IMG/VR virus record: IMGVR_UViG_3300044846_001307
Location: 1 to 64,000 of that record
DNA from: a virus
Direction: 5' to 3' (one strand)
Length of the DNA: 64,000 nucleotides
The translations under genes were made by a program, and so were the position numbers. Numbering within the stretch: position 1 is the stretch's first letter; the number at the start of each line of letters is the position of its first letter. Of this stretch, positions 3,096 through 64,000 are shown one piece after another. The notes beneath the pieces are model-generated. The model was not told where the DNA came from. It saw nothing but the letters and a program-made list of their open reading frames with translations, and did not search any database.

Positions 3096-3350
3096 ATGGA
3101 GGACACAAAAACACATAAATTAGTTTTGTATAATGATTCAGTCAATGACTATGCATACATTATGGCATGCTTGATCAGATTCTGTAAACATGAACCAATA
3201 CAAGCTGAACAGTGTGCTATAATTGCTCATAATGTAGGTAAATGTTCTGTTAAATCTGGTGATTATTTAGAGATGTTAGAAATAAAATCTACTTTTGAAT
3301 CCTTACAGATTAAATCAGAAATAGAAATTTATGAAAGTTATATGCATTGA
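3096..3350 (+). CDS. clpS: ATP-dependent Clp protease adaptor ClpS (Bacteroidota type)
   Basis: LVLYNDSVN...LIRFCKH...QAEQCAIIAHNVGKCSVKSG matches the ClpS core. Confidence 0.85.
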   Translation: MEDTKTHKLVLYNDSVNDYAYIMACLIRFCKHEPIQAEQCAIIAHNVGKCSVKSGDYLEMLEIKSTFESLQIKSEIEIYESYMH

Positions 3351-13114: not shown

Positions 13115-13540
13115 ATGATTTTTGACAAAGAAGAAACGAAGAATTTGTTGAACATGCTACGTTCTACAGATACTGAAAATGCTATCATAGCATTTGAAGC
13201 TCTTAAAGGAGTTGAAATACAAAAATATTTAGGGGAACTAATTGTATTATATAAGTTTGGTAAACAACCTATTAAAGCATGGGATGATAACTGTAATAAT
13301 TGTTCTGTAGCACTTAGAACAGCTTTACATCCTTATACTAAAGAAGATGGTGCTGAGTTAAGCACTGGGTCTTGTTTATCAGCAATGATAAGTAGTAAAG
13401 CAAGTCATCAAGCAGTTGAACTTTTTATGGAGTACTTTACTGTAAATATGATTGGCTTCCTAGGTCAGATGGGTTACCCCGCTGACAAATTTGAAATTAA
13501 TGTAAAACTAAAAGATGATGGACAAACAACAGAGTCTTAG
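13115..13540 (+). CDS. hypothetical protein with MLRSTDTEN motif
   Basis: ATG at 13115, two nt after the upstream stop. Confidence 0.7.
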   Translation: MIFDKEETKNLLNMLRSTDTENAIIAFEALKGVEIQKYLGELIVLYKFGKQPIKAWDDNCNNCSVALRTALHPYTKEDGAELSTGSCLSAMISSKASHQAVELFMEYFTVNMIGFLGQMGYPADKFEINVKLKDDGQTTES

Positions 13541-36600: not shown

Positions 36601-39600
36601 TCTTTCTTAAATAAGAATGCGTCAGAAGATGCACTTTTATTTACTTTTTTGATAACCTCATACATTCTATCAACACCAAATGTTGTACTGAATGGCGTAG
36701 TTCTGTTGTTAATCATCTCTTTGATTGCAGAACTAGATTGATCTAACACAACACCAATAGCTTGTAAGAACTCATTAGCTTTACGGTAGTTAAATCTACC
36801 ATCAGTACCAAAGTCTTTTACAATTTTAGCTGTGTTCAATATATTATTACCATACTTATCTTTTGATACATATGGGTTAATTGTACTATCTGCAGTAACA
36901 AAGTTAGATTTCCAATCTTGAATTACCTGGTATACATCAAAGTTAGCTTTAGCAACACGGGCTTCAAAAGATTTATTTATACCTTCCTCAGTTCTAGCTT
37001 CTTCTTTGTTTAAGTTAAGCTGAACATATGGGATTCTTGGTTTCTTAAAGTCTTGCCAGAAATTTGTTTCTGATGCAAACTCCATTGAAGTATACTCCCC
37101 TAGAGCAGTCTTCTCATTAAAGAATGGATTAGGTAGTAACGTTTGTAGTTGTTCAAGCTCAGGATAATTCTCAGAATTTTCAAAGATTCTTGAGTACATA
37201 TCCATTTCATCAAATGAACCTTCTAAGATTTTAGCAAGTCTATTCCAAGTAATGTCAATGTCCTGTAATACAGGAAGACCAAAAAGACCTTCTCTACTAG
37301 TTACAATCTCTCCATTTTCTTTGGATACTTTGAAGATACTAGCTAATAACATCATAGTGTCTTCACTAGCAAGTTCTTTTGAAGAAATAGTGTTACCGTC
37401 ATTTAACTTAAACAAGTTACTCTTCTCAATATTGCTTGGATCTTCAATCTCTATATATTCATCTCTTAGTACACGGAATCTAGACTTCTCAAGATGATAT
37501 GCTATAACATTGTTTTTTTCTTTACCATCAAGACTATCTGTTAGATTACCAAAATTAGCTGTGATCTTATCTAACAATTCTAATTCTTCAATGAATTTAG
37601 GATCAGTTAATAACTCATCATCAGCCTCTAGATCAGTAACATAAGCAATTCTTAATCTTTCAAATCTGTCATAGATATCTCTGTAAAGATCTTTTTTGTT
37701 TTCTGGATCTTTAAGAAGTTTTAATGCAGCAGCTGTTGTATTGAAGTCTCTGTTGTGAGCTTGAAATATAACAGACATCATGCTGTCCATTGCATCAGCA
37801 ATTTTCTTAGACTCTTCTAATGTAAAGTTATCATTGATGATCTTACTTCTGTTTAGTTTCCCAAACATTACATTATCCATAGAAGGTTTTAAGCTAGATA
37901 GAATACTTGGATTCTCTGAAGCTCTGTATAATTTGTCAAACAATTCTTTTACAGACTCAACATCTTGCAAGCTTGTAGCAGCTTGTTTCTTACTAACTTT
38001 ACCAAATAGCTTTTGGATAAACTGGTAGATCTTGTCAAACAGTCTACCTAAAAGACCTTTAACTTCTTTCTTACCTTTTGATTTAGCATATGATCTAAAT
38101 TCTTCAGCCAAAGATTCCTCTATATCAAAGAAACTTTTGCCTTTGTATTTAGGTAACGATTGTATTTCTTCATAAAGTTTGATCTTCTCATCCTTAGTTA
38201 AAAGTAATTGAGAGAAACCGTGCCATGCTTCATGATAAACATCAACCATGGTACCACCATCAGCTTCATAAAGAGTAATACCATAACCAGACCAGGTAGC
38301 AAATGCATCTGAGTTTACAATTTCTGTTACTCTCTCAAGACTAATGAACTTACTCAAAGGTGAATTGTTCCACCATGTCTCTGCTTTTTGTCTGTCAGAT
38401 TTAGAAGTAAAGACTTTGTCTAAGAATCTATCACGCAGTTTACTTCTGTCTAATCCTTTCTTTTTATATAAAGCACTGTTTGATGAACCATTAATGATAT
38501 CATCTAATAGAGATACTCTAGTTGATGGATTGTTCTTAATGTTTGTTTCTTTAGCTTCAGCTTCTGTTTTAGAAGGAGTTTCTTTTGCAGTTACTGGCTT
38601 GGTACGGATCTGTTTTTTAGGAGCAGCTTTTGGTGCTTCTTTATCAACCTTAGTTTTAGCAACAGGTGTTGATTGAGTAGGTTTTGGTCTACCAACAGGA
38701 ATGATTCCATCAAACTCAACAGTACCTTCAGGTATTGCATAAGTCAGATAAGCATTCATACCATTCTCATATGCATTAGTCTCAGCTGTATATGTAATTT
38801 TGATAAATGGTTTAATTACTTCAAAATAATTCTTAGAGACTTCAGTAATTTTATCTCCTTCAATATTATAATCAGTAATAGTTTTACCCTTATACTTATT
38901 ATTGTATTGCACATTAGCTGGCCAAAACTGATCTTTAACTTTGTCTTTTGGTCTAGCATTTAATAAATGATCTATAATAAGTTTTTTACCTTCTTCAGTA
39001 TAAAGAACATCTTGAGGTATCTCTTTACCATTGATCTCTACAAAGAATGTTTTCTCATTATTTACAATAAGAACCTTTGCTCTAATTCTATCTCTGTTAT
39101 ATGGAAGATTTGTTTTGTATCCTGTTTTAGGATCTTTCATCAAAGCATTATTGATAAAGATTTCAAAGTATGCTTTTCTTTCATCCGGTGTCAACTCTCT
39201 ACCTTTTAACTTTGCTGTAGTAGTTAATACTGTTGCAAGTTGTTCAGCCAAAGACTGATCAATGTCTGATCTTTGTAAAAATACTTCTTGGTCAACATTT
39301 AATCCTCCAGCTTTAGTTTTCTGAATAATAACATATTGTTTACCACTATCTTTACCAGTTGTGATACCAGTATAATTTTTGATATCTGCTTCAGTAAGAC
39401 CAGCTTCTTCCAAAGTCATAGTCTTAATTGCTGTTCTTGGAATACCAAATGTTCCTCCTAAAATTGGAAGAATGATTTGTAACTCACCATTAGACTCTTC
39501 AATTAATTTTCTTAATTGATAAAGCTCATTCATTTCTCTGTCTTGACGATCTTTGATAGTTTTAACAAGTTGTTTGAATTGAGCTTCGGTTACTTTAACC

Positions 39601-51157: not shown

Positions 51158-51202
51158 TAAATCTATTAAAATTTTTTAAGTTTACTAAACCTATAAAGTT
51201 TA
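51158..51202 (-). promoter_or_regulatory. conserved 45-nt intergenic element, copy 1 (candidate phage promoter)
   Basis: TAAACTTTATAGGTTTA...TAGATTTA aligns without gaps to 58966-59010. Confidence 0.55.
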
Positions 51203-54200
51203 TAGTAAAAATGGAAGCCATGAACTAATGTCAATATAACCACTGTTTTCACGTACTGAACCACCTTTTTTTGTTGTTTGTTGTGATCCATAAACATTAT
51301 TAATTATGTTTGGATCCGGTGCAGTATTAGTACCACCTCCACTTCCTCCAGTTCTAGCACAGTCTCTTAGTAGTGCTTCACTCATACCTGGATTGTTTGC
51401 TTTACATGCATCATATGCTTTTTGCCAACTACTAGTATTATTACTTCCTTGACCAGTAACTGTTTTATCAGTAGGTCTAAAATCCATACGTCCACCAGAA
51501 GGTGCATTAACAGCATAGTTAGGGTACATCTGGTTTAATGCATCTGTTTTCCATTTATTAGTAATACCCTGTGTATAATAGTTTCTAACATTATTTCTCA
51601 TTGCTAATTTAGCATTGTCAAACTGTTGATTAGCAACTGTATTTTGATCATACAATCTTTGATTAGTTGCTTGATTCAACATACTACTTTGATTTCTAAT
51701 ATCATTTGCTTTTAATTCAAATTGATTAGCAATATTGACATTGGCATTATTATACTTAGCTAGTATATCAGCAGCATTTTTAGCAGCAGCACCTTGAACA
51801 CCTGATGATCTTAAACCTTGAGGACCAGCAAACTGTGCTAAAGCATTTGTCTGAATAGCTGCTTGTTCAGCATTAGTACCAAGTTCTTTTGTAGGATCTT
51901 GAAACACAGGTCTAGGTACACCCATTGATAATGGAGGAGCTGCCGGCATTCTTTTCTTAAGACCCATCAGATCTCCAAATGCACCTGTAGTTTTAATAGT
52001 ATCTTGTAACCACATTCCAGGAGGTTCACCCGGTACAGGAATAGTTGTATCATCTGTACAAGGAGGACAATTACCATTTTGATCAGCAGTCATCTCTAAT
52101 ACAGTACCATCAGCTTTTTGACATGGACATGTTTTAGGTTTTGCTGGTTCACATGTACAGTTGTTTTGAGCATCTTTTGGTTTATAATTTGGTTTATTTG
52201 GATCATCACATTGACATGGACCACCTTCTGGTAGATCTTCAAATTCTAAATTTCTTTTACCAACCATATATTTATGACCAGCTGTTGTATCACCATATGT
52301 AGTATAAGTACCTCTTTTTGAACCATACCAATTTTTATCATTATAATCATATGTATCATCAAGAGGAGAAATTTTATTACCTATTGGACCATATAATGCA
52401 CCCATAGATGTTTCATCTGCTGCTCCTGAATGTACAAGACTAACATTACCTAAAAAATTATCCATTGCATATTTTGCATCAGGATCATTATTATAAGAAC
52501 CACTTTCAAAATCTTTATATGCTTTTGCATAAGCATGCATAGTAGATTGTTGTAATAATCTATCTTTTCCTTTAGGTTCTAATGGTACATTAAGTTTATC
52601 TGACATTGCTGCTACAGTGGTATAACCGGCATCAGTCATACGTTTTGTTTCAGCTTGAGCTTCAGATAATGTATAAGGTTTACCTGTTTTTGGATTTATA
52701 TATTTTTCATCTAAAATTTCTTGAGGAGTATCCAGTCTATTACCTATATCAGAAAACAATTGCGGATCTACTTCATTAGCTTCAAACATTAAATTTCTTT
52801 TCTGATGCATTAAAGCTGCATTTATAACTTCATCATCTGTTGGTAAATCTCCATATTTAACAGACCATTTTCTATTTGGATCTATAGATGTAGAAGTTTT
52901 ACCTTTCCATGCTGCTGGATCATCAACAATTTGTTTTGTATTTTTTATAATCTCAGCTCTAACGGTTGGGTTATTAAGATTATCTTTAATTAACATGTAT
53001 TGAGAAGCTGCCACTCTTCCTGTAGGTGTATCTGGAAAACCATCTAAGCCATCTGCTTTAATATCAGATCCACTAGGAATTGTAAAACCAGAACTTTTTA
53101 ATTTTTGAGTCTTAACTTTTCCATCTTCTCCTTTACGTGTTACTTGTATTTCAGCATTTTTATCTTTATCTTTTGCATTCCATATAGCTCTCTGAAGTTG
53201 ATCTTCAGTCATATTAGTTGCATCAATAATTACAGGTCCACCTTGTGTAGTTGCTATACCATCTCTAGCTTTAACCATACGTGTTATTGGACCTGATGCA
53301 GGAATTCTTTTTGGTCTACCTTGATAGTTTTGAGACATACCTGCACCCATTGACATACCATACTCTGCTTCTGGCATATCATAGAAAGGCATATCATAAC
53401 CACCCATAGACATTCCATAGGCAGCCATTGGTGGTGCCATTTGTTCTTCTTCCATAGGAGGTTGTTGACCCATTGCTTGTTCTTGTCCACCTTGACCTTG
53501 GGACATTACTGATTGAATAAGACCCACAGCCTCTTCTTGAGAAACACCCAATTGAGTAAATACTTGTACTACAGCTTCAGGTGGAAGACCATTCTGTAAT
53601 AAACTCATAACAACTTCAGCAGGTTCAGCACCTCTTTGTAAAGCACCTTGAACCTCTTGCATGATTTCCATCATCTGATCTTGACCACCTTGTGCACCTT
53701 GTGCACCTTGTTGTTCTATCATTGCCATTTCTTCAGGAGATGGTTGTTGCATACCTTCTGCAGCTCTTCTTAATCTTCTCATACCACCACCATACATCAT
53801 CATTTCTTCTTGAGACATTTGTGGTTGTTGAGCTTGTGCAACAGGTTGACCTTGGTTCATTTCCTCAGCTTGCATCATTTGATTCTGATCATACTCTGAT
53901 TCCATTGTCTGATCTGAATTCTCCTGTTGTTTCATTTGTTTTTTCAACTGATCATTTAATGCACTGATTTCTTTAGCAGGTAGAATTTGTTCTTCTGTAA
54001 GACCTCTTGCTTCCATACAAGGTTTAGCTACAGCAGGAATTCCTTGAGGAAAACCTTTCATTGATTCTTGAGCTAATGCTAAACAACCTAACTTAATGAC
54101 ATACTTCTTCATCATCAACTCAGCTGATTTTCTTTCTATAGCATCAGTATCAGGATCTTCTAAGATTTTTCTATACTTCTGTAAGTCATATTGTTTTGCA

Positions 54201-54601
54201 AGTTCTGCAGGAGTGTATGATTTGTTTATACCACCTTTACCAAACATAGCAAGTACAGCTGGATCTTTTATTCTCATACCTCTAGTATCACTAAAAATAA
54301 AAGTATCCTCAGGTAAATTTAATGGTACTCCACCATTATGGTGTCTTGGACCTTTAATGATTTGTTGTTCTGGCATTCCATCACCATTGATGTCTCCATA
54401 TACAGTTTCTCCACCCTCTGCTTCTAAGTTAGCTTCATCTCTTGGTACGGCAGTAATATACTTACTAGCTATAAGTTTAGGCTTCCCTATATAAGCATTA
54501 TAGTCTGCTCCACCCATTGCTGGAACATCATTTACTAAAGCACCTTGGACTTGATATCCTGTTTTTGCTTGAGGTAATTTTTTAATTCTAACTTTTATCA
54601 T
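51200..54601 (-). CDS. modular putative virion cargo protein
   Basis: EAEGGE...GPRHHNGGV...IFSD domain, Gln/Met-rich region, Cys-rich segment and repeated AxxG/xxGG motifs. Confidence 0.75.
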   Translation of the reverse strand: MIKVRIKKLPQAKTGYQVQGALVNDVPAMGGADYNAYIGKPKLIASKYITAVPRDEANLEAEGGETVYGDINGDGMPEQQIIKGPRHHNGGVPLNLPEDTFIFSDTRGMRIKDPAVLAMFGKGGINKSYTPAELAKQYDLQKYRKILEDPDTDAIERKSAELMMKKYVIKLGCLALAQESMKGFPQGIPAVAKPCMEARGLTEEQILPAKEISALNDQLKKQMKQQENSDQTMESEYDQNQMMQAEEMNQGQPVAQAQQPQMSQEEMMMYGGGMRRLRRAAEGMQQPSPEEMAMIEQQGAQGAQGGQDQMMEIMQEVQGALQRGAEPAEVVMSLLQNGLPPEAVVQVFTQLGVSQEEAVGLIQSVMSQGQGGQEQAMGQQPPMEEEQMAPPMAAYGMSMGGYDMPFYDMPEAEYGMSMGAGMSQNYQGRPKRIPASGPITRMVKARDGIATTQGGPVIIDATNMTEDQLQRAIWNAKDKDKNAEIQVTRKGEDGKVKTQKLKSSGFTIPSGSDIKADGLDGFPDTPTGRVAASQYMLIKDNLNNPTVRAEIIKNTKQIVDDPAAWKGKTSTSIDPNRKWSVKYGDLPTDDEVINAALMHQKRNLMFEANEVDPQLFSDIGNRLDTPQEILDEKYINPKTGKPYTLSEAQAETKRMTDAGYTTVAAMSDKLNVPLEPKGKDRLLQQSTMHAYAKAYKDFESGSYNNDPDAKYAMDNFLGNVSLVHSGAADETSMGALYGPIGNKISPLDDTYDYNDKNWYGSKRGTYTTYGDTTAGHKYMVGKRNLEFEDLPEGGPCQCDDPNKPNYKPKDAQNNCTCEPAKPKTCPCQKADGTVLEMTADQNGNCPPCTDDTTIPVPGEPPGMWLQDTIKTTGAFGDLMGLKKRMPAAPPLSMGVPRPVFQDPTKELGTNAEQAAIQTNALAQFAGPQGLRSSGVQGAAAKNAADILAKYNNANVNIANQFELKANDIRNQSSMLNQATNQRLYDQNTVANQQFDNAKLAMRNNVRNYYTQGITNKWKTDALNQMYPNYAVNAPSGGRMDFRPTDKTVTGQGSNNTSSWQKAYDACKANNPGMSEALLRDCARTGGSGGGTNTAPDPNIINNVYGSQQTTKKGGSVRENSGYIDISSWLPFLL

Positions 54602-54609
54602 CGGGTTCT

Positions 54610-57600
54610 TTATAAATATTCAACTTGTCCTCCTGCTGCTAAGAATTGTTCTAATTCTTCTGGAGTCATATATACTTCTTCATCATCCATGTAACCACCA
54701 TCTTGCATGTAACCACCATATTGAGCAGCATTACTGTTTGCATAATTACCAAAGGTTGCTCTACTGTTTCTGTCTGATCCCATTTCATCGTATCTAAACA
54801 TACCAGTTTTACTACCTATATCTCCCCAATCTCCCTTATCAGTTTGATTAGATGCCATTACATTAGCCATTGGATCAAACTTGTCTAACAACATATTGTT
54901 TTCAATTGGATTGTTTTGCATTCTTTCCATAAAACCTAGACCTGCATTAGCCATTGAATTAAATGCATTAACTCCTGCTTCACCATCAAAGTTTCTAGCT
55001 GTTTTACGTTGTCTTTCTACACCAACATACTGATTTGGATTAGGTTGAGGTGCTGGCTCTTGAGGTATAATTTCTTGACCTTGGTTACCTAATGTATGAC
55101 CAGTATTTGCAGTTTCAGCATAAGAACCTGTCCCAGTCTGAGTTATAAAGTTGAATGGGTTTTGTTGTTGTGGCATTTTGTTAGGAGCTTGTGCACCAAA
55201 CAGATCATTTTCAAATTGAGATTGTTGAGAATAAGGATTATATCCTGCTTGATTTTGACCAGCTCCCATACCAAAACCAGTACCTACTTCAAATGCACCA
55301 CCCATTCTTTTAAAAGAAGGATTTTTTATTCTATCAACTAATGTTTTAAGAGTACCATATGCATTCTTTACATTATCAACTGCATCTCTAGCACCATAAT
55401 AAACTTGATCAGTATTGTATCTAGCACCACGTCCTTGTTCATATCTCTCAGCTTGTCTTAGATTTCTTTGACCTCTTCTAGTTTGCTCATCCCACTCTTC
55501 ATCACTAAATTGGAATCTTTCTTTTGCTTGATCTTCTAAACGATCTCTTCTACTTGTCTTTTCAGGCTTGTCATTGTTTTTGTAATTAACCATTGACCAA
55601 CCATCTTGAAGTGCATCTTTTACCATTTTTTTATCAAGACGACCAAGATTAGACTTGTTTCCAGAACCTCTACGGTTATCTAACATACCCTCAAGGTTTT
55701 GTAAATCACCCATAGGAACTCCAGTACCATCACCATCTACTTGATAGATGTCAATCCATTTTTTTCTACCACCTAATAAACCTTTCTTAGTAGTGTAACT
55801 TGCAACAGGTTTGTCTGGTATAAGACCATTATAAGATCTACCATCATTTAAATAATATGGAGAACCTTTTTGTTTAACCCATGATCCTGCAGCACCAAAC
55901 ACTGGATTCCACGGAACTAAGTTACGACCATAACCACCTGGATTTCTAACCTGTGTATACTTATAGTTCATTTTAGCTATTGGAATACACATGTTGTATT
56001 TGTCATTCCAAACTGTACCAGGACCACACTGAGTTTTCTTTGATTGCAAGCTTGCACTTGAATTTGATACACAAGCAGATCCATTCCAAGTATATCCTGC
56101 TGGACACTTCTGAGTACTTCCTTCTTCTTCTTGTTCTTCACCACCTATATTAGTATAATCTTTCAATGCTTCATCATAAAAATTTTGATAATCATCATAT
56201 GTCCTATCATCTAATTTAACATCAACATCATAGTCCCCATCTGGATTAGCAGCTTCCCAATCTTCTCTTTCACTTTTTCTATTTAATATTTCATTATCTG
56301 CCCATTCTTGATAATTCATTTTATCTTGCATACCTCTTAGCTCTCCAGCTTTGTTAGTAATAGTAATACCATCTCTAGCTTGTTCTAAATCATATGGTTC
56401 ATAGTATTCACTCTCATCACCACCATAAATAAATTTAACAAGTGGTTCTTCAGCATTCATATCTACAAATCCACCAAATGCTGCAGTAAAATCTGTATTC
56501 ATTGGTTCTTCTTCAGCAAGATTTTCTTTATAACCATCTTGCGTTAACATGTTTAGAATCTTTGGATTACCCTGAGCATTCTTATAAATATCTTTTGATA
56601 TAGCTTTATTAGAATTAGTTTTTAATGTACTAATGAAAGAGTTTTTCATGTTAGCAACATCATCTGTCAAAGTATCTTTTCTATTACCTTTACCTAATGC
56701 TTCAGTATCACCACCTTCTGCATACATTGAAACCATTTTTTTAATAAATCTGTTTTCAGAAACACCACCTTTTGCAAAATCATCAGGTAATACTTGGTTT
56801 TGTAAATTTGGGTTTACAACATTTGAATCTTGGTATCTATAATAGTTATAGTCACTAGGAGTTTGTCCTTTTAAGAATTTTAAACTATCTGGTGTCCGTA
56901 ATGAATTCGGATCAATAGTACCATCTTCTCTAATAGGAGTAGGGTCTAAAACTCTACTTGGCCCTACATCAGTACCACATGTACATTTACCAAGAGCATT
57001 TTTAGGTTGGAAGTTTGGTAAATTACGATCCTCACATTGACACGGATGTGCTAATGCATCATATGTTTGATAACCTAGATAACCTAAACCACCACCAATA
57101 AGTGTAGTCTTTAAACCTAATCTATACTTATAGTTAATAGCATTCTTAATATCAGATGCTGTTTGTGAATAAGGTATAGCAGCAGGGTCTTGAATGTTTG
57201 GTCCAAGAGCCATGTTTGCATAACCATATACAGGTTGATCAATATTTTCAATTCCTTTTGCACCAGTTCTGAATAATTGGTTTAATCCAGTTGTTCCATA
57301 TGTTTCTAAACCTCTACCAATTTTTCCTCTGTTACTTAAAGTATCCCATGTAGATGGTGGTAGACCTGTTATATCAACTTTGTTTACACCTTTAAAATCA
57401 TCCATGTAATTAGGAAAAGGAGTTGTTCCAAAATCTTTTAATAACAACTCATTCATGCTACCTGTAAATGAAGAACCAATTGGTCTTGTAACTCTTGATT
57501 TTGTTTGAACACCCATTGTTAATGGATTACCTAATGGATCAAATACATTTAATCCACCTGTCTCAGGGTCTTGATTGTAATAAAATCTATTTTTAAATGT

Positions 57601-58950
57601 AACTTCTTTAGCTTTAGGAGGTGTTGTACCAAAAGGTAAATTTTGGTTAGGACCAAAAGTATGTTTAAACTCAAAAAATTTATTACCAGCATCATCTTCA
57701 CCACCAATAACTTTTGTTTGAGGAGGGTAAATACCACTAATCAAACCTTCTTGTTGAGACATGTTACCGTAAAGGTCTTCTAATGTAAAAGGTTCATTAT
57801 TGGTTCTTTCTAATTGCATTATTAAATCTTGAACATCTGCTTGATCTAATACTAACCTATCAGCTTGTAAGCTACCATCAGTTCCACCAGCATATGTCCC
57901 ATTCTGACTAAACACTCCTGTTTTTGGAGTAGCTCCATTAATAACATTCCAAAGCTCAGTTCTATTCTGTGTAAATGGAGTAGCTAATTTTGGAGCAAAC
58001 TTTGCTCCTACATAAGGTAACCTAGTCATTGCATCACCAATACCTGTAAATACAGGTAATGCTTTACGTACTGTAGATAAATTAGATAAAGGATTTGCTT
58101 TGTTAGCATATCCAATAGTTGGAACATACTCAGCTAATTTTTGAAGTGCATTTTTAACAGGAGGTGTATTTAATCCATATTGTGCTCTTGGTAAATAATC
58201 TTGAGGTTGGTAAGAATCAGATGCACTTCTGTAATCACCTAAGTAATAAGATAGATCTGGAGTTGCTGGCATCTGTTGTGCACCTGGTGTCATAGCAATT
58301 AAATCTTCCATAGAGAAAGGTTTTCCTTCAGGTGTTTTCCCCGGTGTACCATACTGATTTATTACAGTTTGTTCTCTACTTGGTTGTTGGTTAGGGTTCA
58401 TATCTTCAAATTCAGGATACTCTCCACCATCATCAAAGTAACCACCATATTTAAAAGCTTGTTCTTCTTCATCCTGTGTCATTTCTAAAGCAGAATTCTG
58501 ATTCATTTGTGCATCTTCCTCATCATATAAACCACCATCAGAAATTGCTAGTTCTTCTTGCTCTGCATCTGAAGCTGCTCTTTCATTATCTTCATCTGTT
58601 TGTTGCTGTGGATTAGCTGGTTCTTCTGTTTGAGTTTTATCTTCAACTAATTCTGGATCAACATAACCTTCTTCTGCAAGTTTACTCATAGCAGATTTAA
58701 TAAGCATTATAGATGTATTCTCATCTAATGCATACTCATTAATAAGTTGATTAAATAACATATCAGGTGTAGCATCATTTTTTAATGATATATAAACCTG
58801 ATCATATATTTGATTTAGTTTAGCCGGATCCATACTTGGAGTTCCTACTTCCATACCCATAGCTGCTTTTTCTAAAAACTTAGCAGTTTTGTTATAGTAC
58901 CCTGGAGTTTCACCTGGAAGTGCTTTTCTAATCCTTACTTGCTTCTTCAT
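54610..58950 (-). CDS. modular putative virion cargo protein
   Basis: 1446 aa with many AxxG/xxGG motifs and three Cys micro-domains. Confidence 0.75.
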   Translation of the reverse strand: MKKQVRIRKALPGETPGYYNKTAKFLEKAAMGMEVGTPSMDPAKLNQIYDQVYISLKNDATPDMLFNQLINEYALDENTSIMLIKSAMSKLAEEGYVDPELVEDKTQTEEPANPQQQTDEDNERAASDAEQEELAISDGGLYDEEDAQMNQNSALEMTQDEEEQAFKYGGYFDDGGEYPEFEDMNPNQQPSREQTVINQYGTPGKTPEGKPFSMEDLIAMTPGAQQMPATPDLSYYLGDYRSASDSYQPQDYLPRAQYGLNTPPVKNALQKLAEYVPTIGYANKANPLSNLSTVRKALPVFTGIGDAMTRLPYVGAKFAPKLATPFTQNRTELWNVINGATPKTGVFSQNGTYAGGTDGSLQADRLVLDQADVQDLIMQLERTNNEPFTLEDLYGNMSQQEGLISGIYPPQTKVIGGEDDAGNKFFEFKHTFGPNQNLPFGTTPPKAKEVTFKNRFYYNQDPETGGLNVFDPLGNPLTMGVQTKSRVTRPIGSSFTGSMNELLLKDFGTTPFPNYMDDFKGVNKVDITGLPPSTWDTLSNRGKIGRGLETYGTTGLNQLFRTGAKGIENIDQPVYGYANMALGPNIQDPAAIPYSQTASDIKNAINYKYRLGLKTTLIGGGLGYLGYQTYDALAHPCQCEDRNLPNFQPKNALGKCTCGTDVGPSRVLDPTPIREDGTIDPNSLRTPDSLKFLKGQTPSDYNYYRYQDSNVVNPNLQNQVLPDDFAKGGVSENRFIKKMVSMYAEGGDTEALGKGNRKDTLTDDVANMKNSFISTLKTNSNKAISKDIYKNAQGNPKILNMLTQDGYKENLAEEEPMNTDFTAAFGGFVDMNAEEPLVKFIYGGDESEYYEPYDLEQARDGITITNKAGELRGMQDKMNYQEWADNEILNRKSEREDWEAANPDGDYDVDVKLDDRTYDDYQNFYDEALKDYTNIGGEEQEEEGSTQKCPAGYTWNGSACVSNSSASLQSKKTQCGPGTVWNDKYNMCIPIAKMNYKYTQVRNPGGYGRNLVPWNPVFGAAGSWVKQKGSPYYLNDGRSYNGLIPDKPVASYTTKKGLLGGRKKWIDIYQVDGDGTGVPMGDLQNLEGMLDNRRGSGNKSNLGRLDKKMVKDALQDGWSMVNYKNNDKPEKTSRRDRLEDQAKERFQFSDEEWDEQTRRGQRNLRQAERYEQGRGARYNTDQVYYGARDAVDNVKNAYGTLKTLVDRIKNPSFKRMGGAFEVGTGFGMGAGQNQAGYNPYSQQSQFENDLFGAQAPNKMPQQQNPFNFITQTGTGSYAETANTGHTLGNQGQEIIPQEPAPQPNPNQYVGVERQRKTARNFDGEAGVNAFNSMANAGLGFMERMQNNPIENNMLLDKFDPMANVMASNQTDKGDWGDIGSKTGMFRYDEMGSDRNSRATFGNYANSNAAQYGGYMQDGGYMDDEEVYMTPEELEQFLAAGGQVEYL

Positions 58951-58965
58951 AACATGTTATATATA

Positions 58966-59010
58966 TAAATATACTAAATTTTAATTTAATCAATACACTT
59001 TAAAAGTTTA
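58966..59010 (-). promoter_or_regulatory. conserved 45-nt intergenic element, copy 2 (candidate phage promoter)
   Basis: TAAACTTTTAAAGTGTA...TATATTTA. Confidence 0.55.
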
Positions 59011-62000
59011 CTCATCCTCAATGATATAACCATCTTTAATATACTGATCTATTTCTTTTTTAGATAACTTGGCTACCATACCACCTTTTTTATTTTTTGG
59101 TTTTACCCACGGGTTAGTTAATAACTCTTCAGCTTTACTATAAACTTTTTTAACAGGCTCTGTAACATATTCATCAAGATATTCTTGAGGTGCAGCCATA
59201 CCCATACCAGCAAGAGCTGCAGCATAAGCAGCACCATAACCATATCGTTCTATTAAACTTTGTAAATTTCCTCCTTGAGTTCTCCAATCAAACTCATCAT
59301 TTCTAAGTTTATCCATGTTAACAGGAATGTATCTATTAGAAAAAGGTAATCTTCTATGGAATGAAAGACCTGGTTCAGATAAAGGAATACTAGGCTTTCT
59401 ATTACCAAGAGCATCTGTAACTAAAACACCATTTCTATTAGACATTTTTTGAAAACTTATATCAGAACCAGGAACATTTCTATTAAATTGAGCACCAAAT
59501 ACTCCTGAATATTGTTCATTAGGTTCATTAAGTTCAGCCCAATTACCTTCAGACATAATTTGATTTTTACCCATTCTTAATAATGGACCAGCTGAAGGAT
59601 TTAATTCTCCAGACATTTTTACATAATCTAATGTATCACCAAATTTTCTAAATGCTGTACCATCCATAGGATTCATTTTTTCTCCATAGAAAGGAAGAGC
59701 ATTTAAAGGACTTCCTGTAAATGGACCCATTTTTTCAATGCTTGTACCAAACAAAGGTATCCTTACTGGATTTATCATTATAGGTGCTATATTTTTAGCT
59801 AATGAATTTACAGTACCTATAGTACCTATGTTAGCCATTCTTGCTGCAGTTTTACCTGATGCACCTAAAGATTGTAATCCTTTAACAATTGCACCAGTTC
59901 TAGCTTTAATTAAACCACCATCTGAATAACCTAACAAATTTGTATTCATTGGTTGTTGAGGTACTCTCCATCCAGGATTAACTTTATTAATATTAAACTC
60001 ACCAAAACCTAAACCTTTACTTAATGTATTAATAGGTTTTGTGATAGATTGAAATTTTGGTTGACCTATACCAGGAATAGCAGTACTTGGATTACCCATA
60101 AATATTCCAGATCCAGGTGTTGCAGCATTATATGTAAATGCATATCTACTTTCCGGACTAAGATTTGCTATCATAGTTCCCGGAGTTTTTAAAGTATTAA
60201 GTGTCTTAAAAGCATTTTTAGCAACTCCTACAGCAGGTAGTGCACCTAAAGCATCTAATGCAGCTGTACCATAGTTTCCTTTCTCAAAGTTATCATATGC
60301 ACTTTCAGCAAAAGCTGGTGCATTTGCATAGTAACTAAGTTGACTAATTGGATTATTAAATACATTAGACATAAGTGGTTTTATCAAATTGGGCTTATAC
60401 CATTTAGCACCTTTTGTAATTGCATTTAATCCTTTGATACCACCATATGTGGATCCAACATCCCATAATTCTTTCCCTACAGCAGGAAGAAACTCTCCTT
60501 TATCATAACCTTCTCTTAGATTGAAACCAATCTTAAATGGATTAAAAGGTTGTAAAAGAAAGTTAAAAGGACTCATTACACTTACAGGCATTGTACCTAA
60601 ATCCTCTCCTGTCTCATCTTCAATCTGTTTTCTTTGAGAATAGGTTAAATTTTTAGGTCCATCCCACATACCTTCTCTCGCATTCATTGCATAGTACATA
60701 CAATCAAAAGGATGTTTTAAACAATCTTTTACTTTAGCTCCAGTATTTTCATCAATATTAAATTGATTTCCTGAAACTTGTTTTATTGTGTCAGGATTTT
60801 TTTCATATAAAAGTCTAGCCTCTATACTGTTATTTAATATATCGGCATATGTTTCTTTTTTATCACCAGTTTTTTGTTCTAATAATTTTTGCATTGCTTG
60901 ACTAGGATCCTCTTGAAATGATTTTAATATTTCAAGTTTACTTTTTTGTGTAGAACCTGCATTATCTAATGCTTGTTTAAGAACTTGTTTAGTAGCATCT
61001 GATTGAAAATTTTGCATGTATGCTAAATAAGCATCATTAAAATCTTTAGCTTTAGCAGTATTTGCAGCAGCTAGTGCATTCTTTTGATTTAAAGTTTGGT
61101 TCAATAATGCATTGTTCTGTCTAACATTAGCCATAGCATCATCTTTTGCAAAAGTAAGTCCATCATACTGACCTGCTTTTCCATACTTATCCATCCAATC
61201 TGAATAAGCTTTCTCACCTCTTTCAGTTTTTTGAGATTGATAATTAATAAAATCTCCTAAGTTATTTGTACCACTATGATATCTCTTTTCCCATGCAGTC
61301 ATTGGGTCATCAGATTCTAAAAATATTTTACGATCCTGATCAACCTTAGCTCTATCAGTTCCGGGTATAGAATCTATATTTGAAACAAGACTTGCATATG
61401 CATCATCTATTATTTTATTTGTAGGTTTTTCAAATGTAGATTTTAAACCTGACTGTGTCCCTATTTTAGGAGAAAGTCCTTTAATAACTTGGTCTACAGG
61501 TTTACCTTGCTCAATGGCTTTTGTAAGTATACTCTTAGTTACTTCAGCTTCATAGTTAGCTTTAGCTGCTCCCATTAAATCTCCAAGTTGTTCTTTAACT
61601 TGTTTAGGATCTAAACCCCAATAGTTTTTAAATTGCTCTGCTTGAAAACCATTTGTAATAATTCTATCTTGAACTATGTTTTTAGGAAACAATTCTATAT
61701 AACCATCTTTCTTATGAACAAGAAAATTATTTTTTAACTCAGCTTCTTCTTCCGGTGAAACATTAGATTCTGGAATTTTTTTCCAAGGTTCAATTTTATC
61801 TTGTTTTTTAGATTTAGCAAATGTCTCACGATATTTATCACTCTCTTCTTTATACCATCTTTTTTGTTGTTCATTTGCTTTAGTACGTATATCATTTATG
61901 TCTTTAGCTAAAGCTGTATTTCTAGCTAATTGTTTAGCTTCAAAGTCTTTTTGTATTTGATTCATTTCTGCTTTAGAAGCAGCAATATATTCTGATTCAG

Positions 62001-62268
62001 GTAAACATTGTCCATTAAACTCATACATACCTGGAGGACATCCTTCACCTCTCATATAACCTGGCAATGATTCATTCCAATATGATGGTTGCTGTACTCC
62101 TTGTACTTCTACCATAGGAGAAGCTGGTGTTTCCCCATCATATGGATCTTGTGATTTATTTGAAGATTTAAATTTACTTTTTTTAAGTCTACTATTTTTA
62201 ATTGTTTTACCAAATCTGGCTTGAGGTAATTCCTGTGGAATACTAGTTATTCTGTACTTTGCCATCAC
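59008..62268 (-). CDS. modular putative virion cargo protein
   Basis: 1086 aa with a CPPG micro-domain, coiled coils, hydrophobic Gly/Ala helices and xxGG motifs. Confidence 0.75.
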   Translation of the reverse strand: MMAKYRITSIPQELPQARFGKTIKNSRLKKSKFKSSNKSQDPYDGETPASPMVEVQGVQQPSYWNESLPGYMRGEGCPPGMYEFNGQCLPESEYIAASKAEMNQIQKDFEAKQLARNTALAKDINDIRTKANEQQKRWYKEESDKYRETFAKSKKQDKIEPWKKIPESNVSPEEEAELKNNFLVHKKDGYIELFPKNIVQDRIITNGFQAEQFKNYWGLDPKQVKEQLGDLMGAAKANYEAEVTKSILTKAIEQGKPVDQVIKGLSPKIGTQSGLKSTFEKPTNKIIDDAYASLVSNIDSIPGTDRAKVDQDRKIFLESDDPMTAWEKRYHSGTNNLGDFINYQSQKTERGEKAYSDWMDKYGKAGQYDGLTFAKDDAMANVRQNNALLNQTLNQKNALAAANTAKAKDFNDAYLAYMQNFQSDATKQVLKQALDNAGSTQKSKLEILKSFQEDPSQAMQKLLEQKTGDKKETYADILNNSIEARLLYEKNPDTIKQVSGNQFNIDENTGAKVKDCLKHPFDCMYYAMNAREGMWDGPKNLTYSQRKQIEDETGEDLGTMPVSVMSPFNFLLQPFNPFKIGFNLREGYDKGEFLPAVGKELWDVGSTYGGIKGLNAITKGAKWYKPNLIKPLMSNVFNNPISQLSYYANAPAFAESAYDNFEKGNYGTAALDALGALPAVGVAKNAFKTLNTLKTPGTMIANLSPESRYAFTYNAATPGSGIFMGNPSTAIPGIGQPKFQSITKPINTLSKGLGFGEFNINKVNPGWRVPQQPMNTNLLGYSDGGLIKARTGAIVKGLQSLGASGKTAARMANIGTIGTVNSLAKNIAPIMINPVRIPLFGTSIEKMGPFTGSPLNALPFYGEKMNPMDGTAFRKFGDTLDYVKMSGELNPSAGPLLRMGKNQIMSEGNWAELNEPNEQYSGVFGAQFNRNVPGSDISFQKMSNRNGVLVTDALGNRKPSIPLSEPGLSFHRRLPFSNRYIPVNMDKLRNDEFDWRTQGGNLQSLIERYGYGAAYAAALAGMGMAAPQEYLDEYVTEPVKKVYSKAEELLTNPWVKPKNKKGGMVAKLSKKEIDQYIKDGYIIEDE

Positions 62269-63998
62269 TATATTTTTTCAAACGTATAACCTAATTTCTT
62301 TAATTGTTGCATAGTAGCTTCATCTATTTCATCTCCAAGTTCATAATCAATAGAACCTCCTTGTTGAGCATATTGCATTTCTTCTTGAGAATCATTTTTT
62401 GCAATATAGTTAAATAGATCTTTTAATCCTTTCTCATCTTTTACAACTTTGAAAAGATTGTATAATGCAGGATCATAATTAGGATTATTTTTATCCAATG
62501 CACCATTTTTCTCTGCTTCAGATTTCCAAGACTTAATATCCTCATCTGTAATAACTTGTGTTGGTTGAAGACCTTTACTTTGTCTTACCTCAAATATTAA
62601 AGACTGTATGTTGTCTTGACTAGGATCTGTAAGATAATCATAATAATCCCTAGCTGCTTTTTTATCTGCACCTTTAAGATCACCCCAACCTTCTTCAAAT
62701 GATTTTAAGTTAGGTTGAATAATAATTTGTTCAGCAGGTAATATTTTATCACCAAATTTATCCCAAAGTCTTGTTCTTTCTTCATGTGCAATAGTTGAAT
62801 TTAATTCTTTTGGATCAGCTTTCAACTTTTCATTTAGTAATATTTTTTCAGCATCACCCTCATCATCATACACTAACTCTCCCATTACATTTGGATCATC
62901 ATTAATTATACTAGCATACTCATAAGGCACAGATTGATTTAATTCATCCAATAGTGGAGATTGCGGATTATAAACTGGTAAGAATTGTTTTAATGTACGT
63001 TCATATGTCTTATTACCTATTTCATCAAAAGGTAATTGTCTATTCCCATACCAGTTACTAAAGTAAGAGTTTGCATCTATTAAATTACTTGAAGGATCAT
63101 TTTCTTCAATAGGTGTATCCATTTGAACAGGAGCTGGGCCACCATTTCTTTTTTGGTTTAAAGCACCTCCATATTTTCTTTCAGCATCTATTAATTTCTG
63201 TTTATTACCAGTTGTTAAATACTCTTCAAATGATTTTACTAATTTTTTTTCAACGTCACTTTGTTGTTCTTGATTTTTTGAAGCAGCATTTAAGTAAGAC
63301 ATTATCAAAGCATCATCAAGATCTTTATATAACTCCTGTTGTTTTATTTTCTTTACATCACTCTCATCAAAAACTGTTATTTCTCTTGGATCAAAAGCAC
63401 CAGTAAAACCTTTATCTCTTAATGCATCTGCAGCTTGAGCTTGACTTGTTCTAATTAAATCTTCATTACCAGTTGGATTAAAACTTGTTCTTAAAGCCTG
63501 TTCATACTCATATCCATTTTGAAAATTTCTTGGATCTACACCATTTATCAAGCCTACTTTTTTTATAAAGTCATTAGTCATTGGTGCATTATAATTTAAA
63601 AAGTTTTGAGGATTTTTAAATAAAGCTTCTGAAACATAAGGTGTAAATGTTTTAGATTGAGGTATTAAACCATAACCACCTAAACTACTACTTCTAGCTG
63701 CACTTGCAGCAAAGTCAGGATGTTGTGTAAAATATGCACCACCTTCTTGATTACCTAAACCACTACCTCTAAAAGATCTATCAAAATTTTCAAATGATGT
63801 TTTATGTCCAGTTAAACCACCTGTTATTATTGGTTGATCACCATCATACATAATTGGATTGTAACCACTATACTGAGTTAAAAAATCACTCTCTAGCATA
63901 GGAACTTTTTCCAATAATTTTTTTGTTTGCTGTAAGTCTAACTTTGGCAATTCAAACTGAGCACCTGGAATAGCAGCTGGAAGATTAATCTGACTAGA
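62268..63998 (-). CDS. 5'-truncated cargo protein with ADP-ribosyltransferase-like (ART-PolyVal-like) and degenerate zincin-like domains
   Basis: frame is open to the window edge (SSQINLPAAIPGAQFELPK...); FENFDRSFRGSGLGNQEGGAYFT...LRDKGFTG...EITVFDESDVK; IAHEERT. Confidence 0.7.
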   Translation of the reverse strand, partial: SSQINLPAAIPGAQFELPKLDLQQTKKLLEKVPMLESDFLTQYSGYNPIMYDGDQPIITGGLTGHKTSFENFDRSFRGSGLGNQEGGAYFTQHPDFAASAARSSSLGGYGLIPQSKTFTPYVSEALFKNPQNFLNYNAPMTNDFIKKVGLINGVDPRNFQNGYEYEQALRTSFNPTGNEDLIRTSQAQAADALRDKGFTGAFDPREITVFDESDVKKIKQQELYKDLDDALIMSYLNAASKNQEQQSDVEKKLVKSFEEYLTTGNKQKLIDAERKYGGALNQKRNGGPAPVQMDTPIEENDPSSNLIDANSYFSNWYGNRQLPFDEIGNKTYERTLKQFLPVYNPQSPLLDELNQSVPYEYASIINDDPNVMGELVYDDEGDAEKILLNEKLKADPKELNSTIAHEERTRLWDKFGDKILPAEQIIIQPNLKSFEEGWGDLKGADKKAARDYYDYLTDPSQDNIQSLIFEVRQSKGLQPTQVITDEDIKSWKSEAEKNGALDKNNPNYDPALYNLFKVVKDEKGLKDLFNYIAKNDSQEEMQYAQQGGSIDYELGDEIDEATMQQLKKLGYTFEKI

Positions 63999-64000
63999 TA

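What the first reader, a model, noticed from the sequence alone, without database searches (positions are those of the whole stretch)
51200..64000. Tandem cargo polyproteins divided by recurrent AxxG / xxGG motifs: candidate protease-processed effector delivery system
Seen: four consecutive, otherwise largely dissimilar proteins carry many copies of a short motif, often in pairs. 62268 has RKYGG..KRNGG and YAQQGG. 59008 has LPQARFG, YSDGGLIKARTG and KNKKGG. 54610 has EKAAMG, FKYGGYFDDGG, LPRAQYG, FAKGG, YAEGG, AAFGG, FIYGG, EQARDG, KRMGG and AQYGGYMQDGG. 51200 has LPQAKTG, MMYGG..RAAEG, MAAYG, PEAEYG, VKARDG and TKKGG. The motifs fall at compositional or domain boundaries; in 62268 the order is ART-like domain, GG pair, zincin-like domain, GG, C-terminal tag. 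I did not notice comparable arrays in the left arm or in the proteins at 24677-51143. Known: adenovirus protease ((M/I/L)xGG-X) and the ASFV polyprotein protease (GG-X) cut at Gly-Gly sites, and phage prohead proteases mature internal head proteins. Inference: these are cleavage sites or capsid-loading signals that turn each gene into a string of separately released modules.
Basis: partly seen in the sequence, partly recalled or inferred. Interest (0 to 1): 0.85.

Follow-up and report, generated by a model that had tools for sequence, protein, structure and literature searches.

The report
Seam peptides in crAss-like cargo proteins
Four neighbouring proteins that this lake-water crAss-like phage most likely packs into its particle and injects are strings of swappable modules whose joints carry one short conserved glycine peptide; the peptide is real and apparently undescribed, but nothing shows that the proteins are cut there, and it looks more like an uncut hinge or docking handle.

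Summary
The window is part of a 76.7-kb crAss-like phage contig. The four genes lie between the muzzle-like gene and the giant RNA-polymerase-type genes, where crAss001 encodes its cargo proteins. The loose pattern "AxxG / xxGG" is close to chance given the Gly content. The specific form is not chance. It is a two-part seam: aromatic/Met/Lys-x-x-G-G, a 0-25 aa spacer, then L-P-x-A-x-x-G. It is 8-25 fold enriched, is confined to the four cargo proteins, and is conserved as islands in variable linkers. It lies in low-confidence AlphaFold linkers at domain edges. It also coincides with the main points where relatives insert, swap, duplicate or move modules such as the SET domain. Three gene boundaries are split seams, each capped by a shared 19-aa C-terminal tag and a basic N-terminal strand. 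One relative encodes two of the proteins as a single chain joined by a bare seam. Capsid proteins lack the motif. In the crAss001 cryo-EM structure one such motif is ordered and continuous with the domain that follows it. Cleavage is therefore unproven and somewhat disfavoured; a hinge or docking role fits best. The scan has reported the same seam in at least eight other crAss-like genomes, and I found no published description.

The parts
62268..64000 (-). Cargo gene A (C-terminal 576 aa lie in the window; the full gene is 62268-66053 on the contig, 1261 aa). Its SET domain, four further seams and the internal C-tag copy are beyond the window edge.
   Evidence: synteny in 9 loci
63339..63809 (-). 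ART-like stretch of A (aa 749-905). Weak: below the Pfam cut-off and not confidently folded.
63138..63176 (-). Seam of A: KYGG...RNGG pair (aa 960-972). It is the commonest homology breakpoint of the family (q965).
62397..63104 (-). Well-folded C-terminal domain of A (aa 984-1219). Weak zincin-like fold; the motif is HEERT, not HExxH.
62271..62369 (-). AQQGG seam plus the 19-aa C-terminal tag of A (aa 1229-1261)
59008..62268 (-). Cargo gene B (1086 aa; relatives start at the ATG one codon inside the GTG)
62209..62268 (-). N-terminal tag of B: basic strand plus LPQARFG
59893..59928 (-). Compact two-part seam of B: YSDGG-LIKARTG (aa 781-792). Homology breakpoints fall at q778-795.
59011..59097 (-). 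KNKKGG seam plus the 19-aa C-terminal tag of B (aa 1058-1086)
54610..58950 (-). Cargo gene C (1446 aa)
58855..58950 (-). N-terminal tag of C (aa 1-19, basic strand plus ALPGETPG) and a second seam-like LEKAAMG (aa 26-32)
58423..58455 (-). FKYGGYFDDGG seam of C (aa 166-176); breakpoint at q170
58174..58194 (-). LPRAQYG seam of C (aa 253-259); breakpoint at q259, followed by a variable gap region
56710..56778 (-). FAKGG and YAEGG seams of C (aa 725-747); breakpoints at q710-729
56368..56487 (-). Composite seam of C: AAFGG-FVDM...FIYGG...YYEPYDLEQARDG (aa 822-861). Relatives insert 135-430 aa modules here (49 HSP ends at about q826).
55297..55311 (-). KRMGG seam of C (aa 1214-1218); the GG is conserved in a variable region
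54613..54726 (-). AQYGGYMQDGG seam plus the 19-aa C-terminal tag of C (aa 1409-1446)
51200..54601 (-). Cargo gene D (1133 aa). Its N-terminal 230-aa domain belongs to a very large family.
54557..54601 (-). N-terminal tag of D: MIKVRIKK strand plus LPQAKTG
53753..53800 (-). MMYGG-GMRRLRR-AAEG seam of D (aa 268-283). It flanks a Q/M-rich module that is tandemly duplicated in one relative and sits in family C in others.
53357..53434 (-). PPMAAYG...GGYDMPFYDMPEAEYG seam cluster of D (aa 390-415)
53258..53275 (-). VKARDG seam of D (aa 443-448). Immediately after it, relatives carry one of two unrelated module versions.
51260..51274 (-). TKKGG seam before the conserved C-terminal end of D (aa 1110-1114)

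Best explanation
These are the cargo (ejection) proteins of a crAss-like podophage, and they are built as strings of exchangeable modules. The joints carry a conserved two-part seam peptide: [F/Y/M/K/A]-x-x-G-G, a spacer of 0-25 residues that sometimes holds a short basic strand, then [L/M/I]-P-x-A-x-x-G.

Shown here: the seams are real and specific to the cargo proteins, they lie between folded modules, and they are where modules are gained, lost, swapped and moved. Three gene boundaries (A|B, B|C, C|D) are seams split by a stop and a start. In each, the upstream protein ends in a shared 19-aa helix-Gly-strand tag and the downstream protein begins with a basic strand plus LPxAxxG.

Inferred: the seams are not cut. 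They act as flexible hinges and short docking handles that hold the modules, and through the end tags the four separate proteins, in one ordered thread. That thread would be anchored at the portal by the N-terminal domain of D, reach into the tail barrel, and be extruded module by module, partly unfolded, ahead of the DNA. This follows the model proposed for crAss001 C1 (gp45). The payload modules (a SET methyltransferase, possibly ART-like and zincin-like domains) would then act in the host while still tethered.
For: Context: Pfam CrAss_Ring_1/2 and PHROG portal and major-head hits in the 90-kb relative; gene order muzzle-like 1846 aa, A, B, C, D, a 1060-aa protein, then three giants.

Motif reality and specificity.

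Conservation islands.

Linker location.

Module exchange at seams:
- Relatives of C carry 100-490 aa inserts bounded by '..AQ[FY]GG' on the left and 'GGFVDMD..' on the right.
- In A, 7 of 17 breakpoint clusters lie within 6 aa of a seam, against 1.6 expected (p<0.001).
- The SET domain sits at aa 58-138 here and at 493-571 or 585-664 in relatives, always flanked by GG.
- Two alternative modules start right after VKARDG in D, and one relative has a tandem module duplication with its seam.
- The compact seam 'Y.KGG.LPKA..G' recurs in B.

Split versus unsplit joints:
- The 19-aa tag ends 172 proteins. Its internal copies (47 distinct sequences listed) are all in relatives retrieved with protein A. 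38 of these 47 are followed directly by S-[VI]-P-x-L-x-x-A-x-x-G; the others are followed by PKAQ-type, GG-type or less similar stretches.
- P0178 (1771 aa) is a natural C+D fusion. Its joint is the bare seam 'YGQSGG-S-IKARTG' without the tag or the basic strand.

Against cutting, and so in favour of this reading: crAss001 gp45 carries A[FYE]GG five times (0.22 expected). Its cryo-EM-resolved pieces 214-245 and 425-552 lie between these motifs, and residue 425 starts the AFGG motif, so the chain is intact across that GG. The authors bridge tail and capsid pieces by the 179 connecting residues and detect peptides from that linker (PMC10172136). The crAss001 giants run at full size on SDS-PAGE (PMC6235969). 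No capsid, portal or ring ORF carries the motif.
Against: There is no experimental datum on this phage. The strict conservation of small residues (A, G, GG), the disordered setting, the fixed leader-like distance of LPxAxxG from three N-termini, and the presence of unrelated enzyme modules would all also fit protease sites. The crAss001 argument covers one site in a very distant relative; BLASTP, hhalign and the PF25725 HMM detect no homology. AlphaFold gave the junction mini-domain low confidence, so its helix-turn-strand fold and any tag-to-strand pairing are unverified. Internal copies of the C-terminal tag show that the tag is not needed only at split joints. For protein C, the seam-breakpoint association is significant only for the largest clusters, not overall (5 of 20 clusters vs 3.1 expected, p 0.17).
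Confidence: 0.55

Rival explanations
1. Polyprotein processing. The seams are cleavage sites, after GG and/or after the G of LPxAxxG, cut in the capsid or after injection by a phage or host protease. This would release SET, ART-like and other modules separately; the N-terminal leaders and C-terminal tags would be loading signals that are then removed.
For: - Invariant small residues sit in disordered linkers.
- LPxAxxG lies 9-20 aa from three N-termini.
- Gene fission occurs exactly inside the seam, as would be neutral for a cleavage site.
- Precedent: processed head-internal and polyvalent proteins such as P1 DarA and DdrB (PMC5512222).
- Candidate peptidases exist in the genome: the zincin-like HExxT domain in A (Z 5-6), HExxH motifs in two co-packaged giants, and a DUF2201_N putative metallopeptidase at 13515-14828.
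Against: - No CE-clan, C39 or prohead protease was found in the proteins scanned.
- The motif is absent from capsid, portal and ring proteins.
- The crAss001 AFGG at 425-428 is ordered and continuous with the following domain, and gp45 is modelled as one threaded chain.
- N4 vRNAP, the polyvalent-protein precedent closest in role, is packaged unprocessed.
- The zincin-like domain of A lacks the second His.
Confidence: 0.25
2. Recombination scars or cassette-exchange sites. The seams persist mainly because they are the points where modules are shuffled, through short DNA similarity between seam-coding stretches. On this reading the peptide has no biochemical role beyond being a tolerated flexible linker.
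For: Seam-coding DNA shares 23-35 nt at about 80% between genes: 54695/58424 (YGGY.xDGG), 53247/56357 (ARDGI) and 51260/59080 (KKGG). Breakpoints pile up at seams.
Against: Specific side chains (L, P, A, aromatic at -3, Q/K at -2) are conserved down to 37% identity and into crAss001 gp45, where DNA similarity is gone. This argues for selection on the peptide itself. The repeats are short and imperfect.
Confidence: 0.12
3. Chance or compositional artefact of Gly-rich, low-complexity linkers.
For: Loose A..G and GG counts are near expectation. Some GGs in these proteins are ordinary structural glycines inside conserved domains, for example aa 30, 63 and 90 of D and aa 355, 416 and 465 of C.
Against: PSSM hits are 8-25 fold above shuffles and confined to four of 54 ORFs. 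There is residue-level conservation and flank preferences, and coincidence with module boundaries.
Confidence: 0.03

Closest known systems
Cargo protein 1 (C1, gp45) and cargo protein 2 (gp46) of Bacteroides phage crAss001 (Bayfield et al. 2023, PMC10172136)
   Same: The gene position is the same, directly after the muzzle/'stabilization' gene and before the RNA-polymerase-associated giants. Both are virion cargo. gp45 carries the GG half of the seam: A[FYE]GG five times, and it is the only one of 10 crAss001 virion proteins hit by my matrix. Its two cryo-EM-resolved pieces lie between seams. The model is a partly unfolded thread from tail barrel through the portal to a portal-bound domain.
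   Different: No sequence homology is detectable by BLASTP, hhalign or the Pfam crAss_CARG1 HMM; there is only a language-model resemblance of 0.93. Here the thread is divided among four genes totalling 4926 aa, against one gene of 842 aa. It has end tags, the LPxAxxG half-motif (absent from gp45) and enzyme modules such as SET. The seam motif itself is not described in the paper.
Polyvalent proteins of phages and conjugative elements (Iyer, Burroughs, Anand, de Souza, Aravind 2017, PMC5512222)
   Same: Large virion-delivered proteins that combine unrelated effector-type domains in variable order. A-family relatives carry SET, ART-PolyVal (Pfam hit on P0145) and lytic transglycosylase (PF01464 on P0139). 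Processing by a zincin-like domain was predicted for that class.
   Different: That work defines the class by domain content and names no conserved linker or cleavage motif. No MPTase HMM matches here, and the zincin-like domain of A is HExxT. The proteins here are the core ejection proteins of a crassvirus rather than accessory head proteins.
Gly-Gly-directed viral or bacterial processing (adenovirus protease, ASFV pS273R, C39 double-glycine leader peptidases)
   Same: A GG preceded by a hydrophobic residue at -3/-4; some tags have an amphipathic helix before the GG, as in double-glycine leaders.
   Different: No cognate cysteine protease was found, capsid proteins lack the sites, there is a second half-motif (LPxAxxG) unknown in those systems, and one site is shown uncut in crAss001.
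T4 internal proteins and Alt with an N-terminal capsid-targeting sequence removed by the gp21 prohead protease
   Same: Injected head-internal proteins, including an ADP-ribosyltransferase, carry a short conserved N-terminal leader.
   Different: No prohead protease or scaffold-core system was found. The motif differs (not L/I-x-E) and is mostly internal and repeated.
T7 gp14/gp15/gp16 and P22 gp7/gp16/gp20 ejection proteins
   Same: Podovirus proteins stored in the head, ejected before the DNA and partly unfolded in transit.
   Different: Those are not modular mosaics with a repeated seam peptide or shared end tags.

Membership tests
Crassvirales virion cargo proteins (crAss001 gp45/gp46 type) | Gene position between the muzzle (stabilization) gene and the RNA-polymerase-associated giant genes in a genome with crass ring, portal and MCP genes | tested here: met
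   CrAss_Ring_1 (1.3e-9), CrAss_Ring_2 (1.7e-22), and PHROG portal and major head hits in the 90-kb relative; same gene order in 9 loci and in crAss001
Crassvirales virion cargo proteins (crAss001 gp45/gp46 type) | [quoted passage not shown] | tested here: not met
   No hit at E<=10 in the whole contig, no Pfam hit on P0001, BLASTP and hhalign to gp45 not significant. The only support is an Atlas feature score of 0.93 to a crAss_CARG1 cluster, which is a lead only.
Crassvirales virion cargo proteins (crAss001 gp45/gp46 type) | Physical presence inside the virion (mass spectrometry or cryo-EM) | not testable with these tools
   Uncultured metagenomic phage
Polyvalent proteins (Iyer et al. 2017) | Two or more unrelated effector or enzyme domains in one virion-associated polypeptide | tested here: inconclusive
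   SET is solid (Pfam 1.8e-5; Foldseek prob 1.0; VIA Z 8.5). ART-PolyVal scores 16.5 bits, below the 31.2 cut-off, and has no confident fold. The other modules have no assignable function.
Polyvalent proteins (Iyer et al. 2017) | Zincin-like MPTase domain able to process the protein | tested here: inconclusive
   aa 984-1219 of A resembles M13 and lethal-factor zincins at Z 5-6 only, has no Pfam hit, and its motif is HEERT, lacking the second His.
GG-X protease-processed polyproteins (adenain / pS273R / C39 type) | A cognate cysteine protease encoded by the element | tested here: inconclusive
   None among the 5 cargo-block proteins, 3 giants and 15 structural ORFs of the relative scanned by Pfam or PHROGs. 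The left arm was not scanned completely and the contig is about 62% complete.
GG-X protease-processed polyproteins (adenain / pS273R / C39 type) | Neo-termini at the Gly residues in mature particles | not testable with these tools
   The only related datum is that the crAss001 gp45 density starts at A425 of AFGG and continues through G428 (PMC10172136). This argues against a cut after that GG.
Prohead-protease maturation with capsid-targeting leaders (T4 gp21 / phiKZ gp175 type) | The same cleavage motif shared by major capsid or scaffold proteins and internal proteins, plus a prohead protease gene | tested here: not met
   No GG-half hit and one LPxAxxG-half hit in 17 structural ORFs of the relative. 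No protease family found in that block.

The most novel reading that the evidence does not exclude
The seams are true processing sites of an injected polyprotein system. A still unidentified peptidase would cut at the seam glycines in the capsid or in the host, releasing SET, ART-like and other modules as separate effectors. Candidates are the HExxT zincin-like domain of A, the HExxH motifs of the co-packaged giants, and the DUF2201_N metallopeptidase. Cuts after GG would often expose Tyr, Phe or Leu. Those residues could link the fragments to the phage's own ClpS N-degron adaptor (3096-3350), timing either their destruction or their protection.
Probability: 0.2. Interest if true: 0.85.

Novelty: new variant of a known kind. 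Interest (0 to 1): 0.6.

Why it matters
Crassviruses are among the most abundant phages known, and how their several megadaltons of cargo protein are loaded, ordered and ejected is an open question. A conserved seam peptide with matching end tags gives that question concrete handles. The seam predicts where modules begin and end in hundreds of uncharacterised cargo proteins; the N-terminal domain of D alone has 1576 representative relatives. It explains how payload modules such as SET are exchanged. It also reaches the cultured phage crAss001, where N-terminomics, intact-mass measurement and seam or tag mutants could decide between an uncut thread and a processed polyprotein. If the tags are docking signals, they could also serve as loading handles for foreign cargo.

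Tried and rejected
- Pfam and PHROGs on the four proteins, the 1060-aa neighbour and the three giants gave nothing useful beyond a weak ART-PolyVal hit and LysM.
- tblastn of P0001 against 50,697 phage records found no match.
- An unbiased gapped-dipeptide enrichment did not rank A..G or GG, so I dropped the loose motif definition.
- BLASTP and hhalign of D against crAss001 gp45, and of the 1060-aa protein against gp46, were not significant. The PF25725 HMM gave no hit on the contig. I therefore do not claim homology to C1.
- Foldseek of the protein C model found no match at E<=0.001. Foldseek of the protein A model found only SET.
- A search for fused forms of C longer than 2532 aa found none; this is weak evidence.
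I took genomic context from the search for related loci instead.
- Sortase LPxTG, prepilin-peptidase, 3C-type and assemblin-type site models were considered from memory and rejected, because spacing or key residues do not fit. These were not tested.
- Covariation between the C-tag and the next protein's N-strand is not usable because both are nearly invariant.
- A literature search for a description of the motif, or of cargo processing in crassviruses, found nothing.

Full report
**What the region is.** The window is bases 1-64000 of a 76,724-bp viral contig (CheckV completeness about 62%). It has a plus-strand arm of small genes up to about 24.5 kb. After that comes a minus-strand run of very large genes. 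A 90-kb relative shares 85-93% protein identity in this block. Upstream of the block it encodes a portal and a major head protein (PHROGs) and Pfam CrAss_Ring_1 and CrAss_Ring_2 proteins. This is therefore a crAss-like podophage. Read in the direction of transcription, the gene order is:
- ring proteins
- an 1846-aa muzzle-like protein
- A (62268-66053 on the contig, 1261 aa; the window holds only its last 576 aa)
- B (59008-62268)
- C (54610-58950)
- D (51200-54601)
- a 1060-aa protein
- three giants of 2463, 3315 and 1978 aa

In crAss001 the same position holds the cargo proteins gp45 and gp46, ahead of the RNA-polymerase-associated giants (PMC10172136). All nine related loci I fetched keep the A-B-C-D order. 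Lengths vary widely: A 952-1535 aa, B 863-2084, C 1369-1683, D 1046-1244.

- A..G occurs 41 times against 33.7 expected.
- GG occurs 50 times against 37 expected.
- A blind scan of all gapped residue pairs does not rank either pattern.

A sharper motif survives.
- Flank statistics over 1798 distinct GG contexts in cargo homologues show F, Y, M or A at -3 (F 4.9-fold), Q or K at -2, and Y at -1 and +1.
- 1265 A..G contexts show L at -3, P at -2, K, Q or R at -1 and Q at +1.
- In family B the two halves sit side by side as one 12-13-residue peptide of the type Y-x-K-G-G-x-L-P-K-A-x-x-G. It recurs once to three times per protein. The window's own copy is YSDGG-LIKARTG.

I built position matrices from such compact seams of relatives only and scanned the 54 ORFs of the contig.
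- The GG half hits 13 times in the four cargo proteins (shuffles 1.6, maximum 5) and once elsewhere.
- The LPxAxxG half hits 7 times (shuffles 0.27) and once elsewhere.
- The same matrices hit no capsid, portal or ring ORF of the relative, apart from one half-2 hit in a 142-aa ORF.
- Among ten crAss001 virion proteins they hit only gp45.

**Conservation and structure.** I aligned 24 full-length homologues of C (37-85% identity), a 40-sequence set of C-family homologues aligned to the first 1200 residues of C, and ten D proteins. In these the seam residues stand out as invariant or near-invariant islands in poorly conserved stretches. The N-terminal 15-19 residues and the C-terminal 20-40 residues of each family are almost invariant.

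AlphaFold2 on C residues 1-1200 gives confident domains at 41-100, 285-617, 780-810, 876-931 and 1133-1170. Every listed motif lies in pLDDT<50 segments between them, whereas unlisted GGs at 355, 416 and 465 lie inside the large domain.

AlphaFold2 on A residues 62-1261 gives domains at 62-153 (SET), 212-286, 455-637, 896-961 and 991-1217. The seams at 155, 208, 394/412, 639, 962/971 and 1232 lie at their edges. Low pLDDT is not proof of disorder, and the alignments are shallow.

**Modules move and seams stay.**
- Homologues of C with partial coverage break at about residues 170, 259, 710-729, 826, 862 and 1410, which are seam positions. Relatives carry extra modules of 100-490 aa there, bounded on the left by '..A-Q-[FY]-G-G' or 'P-x-A-Q-Y-G' and on the right by the 'GGFVDMD...FIYGG...LPxAxxG' element.
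- Counted by clusters, the association is not significant for C (5 of 20 against 3.1 expected, p 0.17), although the four largest clusters fall on or within about 7 residues of seams.
- For A the association is strong: 7 of 17 against 1.6 expected, p<0.001, also against random glycines.
- The SET domain (Pfam 1.8e-5 here; Foldseek prob 1.0; VIA Z 8.5) lies at residues 58-138 of A. In two relatives it lies at 493-571 and 585-664. It is bracketed by GG seams each time.
- In D, the closest relative and the window carry unrelated versions of a roughly 350-aa module that begins right after VKARDG.
- Another relative has a tandem duplicate of the Q/M-rich module together with its 'MM[YFW]GG.RRLRRA..G' seam. 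In distant relatives the same module type sits in family C.

**End tags and split seams.** A, B and C end in one 19-residue pattern: hydrophobic at positions 1, 6 and 9, G at 13, Y or G at 14, hydrophobic at 16, E at 17. B, C and D begin with a basic strand (MAKYRITS, MKKQVRIRK, MIKVRIKK) followed by the LPxAxxG half. An HMM of the tag finds 172 terminal copies. It also lists 47 distinct internal copies, all in relatives retrieved with protein A. 38 of the 47 are followed directly by S-[VI]-P-x-L-x-x-A-x-x-G; the rest by PKAQ-type, GG-type or less similar stretches. In the typical internal copy, then, the tag is an optional insert in the spacer of an ordinary seam.

A phmmer search with the first 230 residues of D against 1.84 billion representatives returns 1576 relatives. 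Of the best 150, 124 have the domain at the N-terminus and 26 have it inside a longer protein. One of these, P0178 (1771 aa), matches C over three stretches, including C's C-terminal region. It then continues directly into the D domain at 72% identity. Its joint is the bare seam 'YGQSGG-S-IKARTG-YQVQG', with neither the tag nor the basic strand. Other fused forms keep an internal 'MKIRITG.P..MAYGG'.

Gene boundaries in this block are therefore seams that were split. In the one fused C+D relative the bare joint lacks the tag and the basic strand that the split boundary carries, although family A also keeps internal tag copies. I read the tags as elements that keep the pieces physically associated. 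A packaging-signal role is equally compatible.

**Cut or uncut?** I found nothing that shows cutting, and several points count against it.
- No adenain-like, ULP-like, C39 or prohead protease appears in the cargo proteins, the giants or the structural block.
- The capsid proteins lack the motif.
- In crAss001 gp45 the pattern A[FYE]GG occurs five times (0.22 expected). The two pieces seen by cryo-EM, 214-245 in the tail barrel and 425-552 on the portal, lie exactly between these motifs.
- Residue 425 is the A of AFGG, so the chain is continuous through that GG in the mature virion.
- The authors bridge the two pieces with the 179 intervening residues, from which peptides were detected.
- The crAss001 giants migrate at 150, 270 and >300 kDa.

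Several points favour cutting.
- The residue pattern is the kind proteases read.
- Candidate metallopeptidases exist. A has a weak zincin-like fold with HEERT (Z 5-6). Two giants carry HExxH motifs. A DUF2201_N protein lies in the other arm.
- Processed head proteins and polyvalent proteins are precedents.

I put the uncut hinge or docking reading at about 0.55 and processing at about 0.25.

**Comparison and novelty.** The proteins work like the crAss001 cargo thread and, in their domain mosaics, like polyvalent proteins. Membership in the Pfam C1 family is not met by HMM. Neither source describes a seam peptide or end tags, and my literature searches found no description. The scan's own notes show the same seam reported in at least eight other crAss-like genomes, with the same open question. 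My analysis was done independently and agrees. It adds the natural C+D fusion, the tag-in-spacer anatomy and the cross-genome matrices.

ART-PolyVal scores 16.5 bits against a cut-off of 31.2 and the region has no confident fold. The zincin-like label rests on fold similarity at Z 5-6 only.

Noticed in passing
window 3096-3350 (+): An 84-aa phage-encoded ClpS N-degron adaptor (Pfam PF02617, 8.4e-12). It would become relevant if seam cleavage exposed Tyr, Phe or Leu N-termini; otherwise it is an unexplained early gene.
   Followed up: partly
window 13515-14828 (+): A 437-aa protein with a DUF2201_N putative metallopeptidase (HELLH), a PhageMetallopep hit and a VWA-like DUF2201 domain. It is the only clear peptidase-family hit in the contig, and it lies in the replication arm.
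   Followed up: partly
contig 65640-65882 (beyond the window; L001 5640-5882, minus strand): SET-domain lysine methyltransferase module at aa 58-138 of cargo protein A (Pfam, Foldseek and VIA agree). It sits at different positions in relatives. The seams carry conserved Lys residues (LPKA, KKGG), so self-methylation is conceivable but untested.
   Followed up: partly
window 52150-52220 and 56976-57046 (-): D (aa 794-817) and C (aa 636-658) share a Cys-rich 'PCQC..P..P.....C.C' module (71 nt at 75% identity). These are almost the only cysteines in the two proteins and they are conserved across relatives. The module could be a zinc knuckle or a disulfide element.
   Followed up: no
window 24677-30613 and 30615-40562 (-): HExxH motifs occur at aa 206 (HEFSH) of the 1978-aa giant, which also has a LysM domain at aa 1654-1692, and at aa 777 (HEAWH) of the 3315-aa giant. 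Neither region has a Pfam peptidase hit.
   Followed up: partly
window 62265-62268: The longest ORF of B starts at a GTG, but all relatives start at the ATG one codon downstream (MAKYRITS...). The A stop and the B start overlap, which suggests translational coupling.
   Followed up: no
window 57050-57130 (-), aa 607-633 of C: A predicted long helix rich in Gly, Leu and Tyr (LIGGGLGYLGY) lies just before the Cys-rich module. It may be the counterpart of the transmembrane helix predicted in crAss001 gp45.
   Followed up: no
L013 14417-18151 (relative): Tandem duplication of the Q/M-rich module of D together with its seam. This looks like a recent module gain inside a cargo gene.
   Followed up: partly
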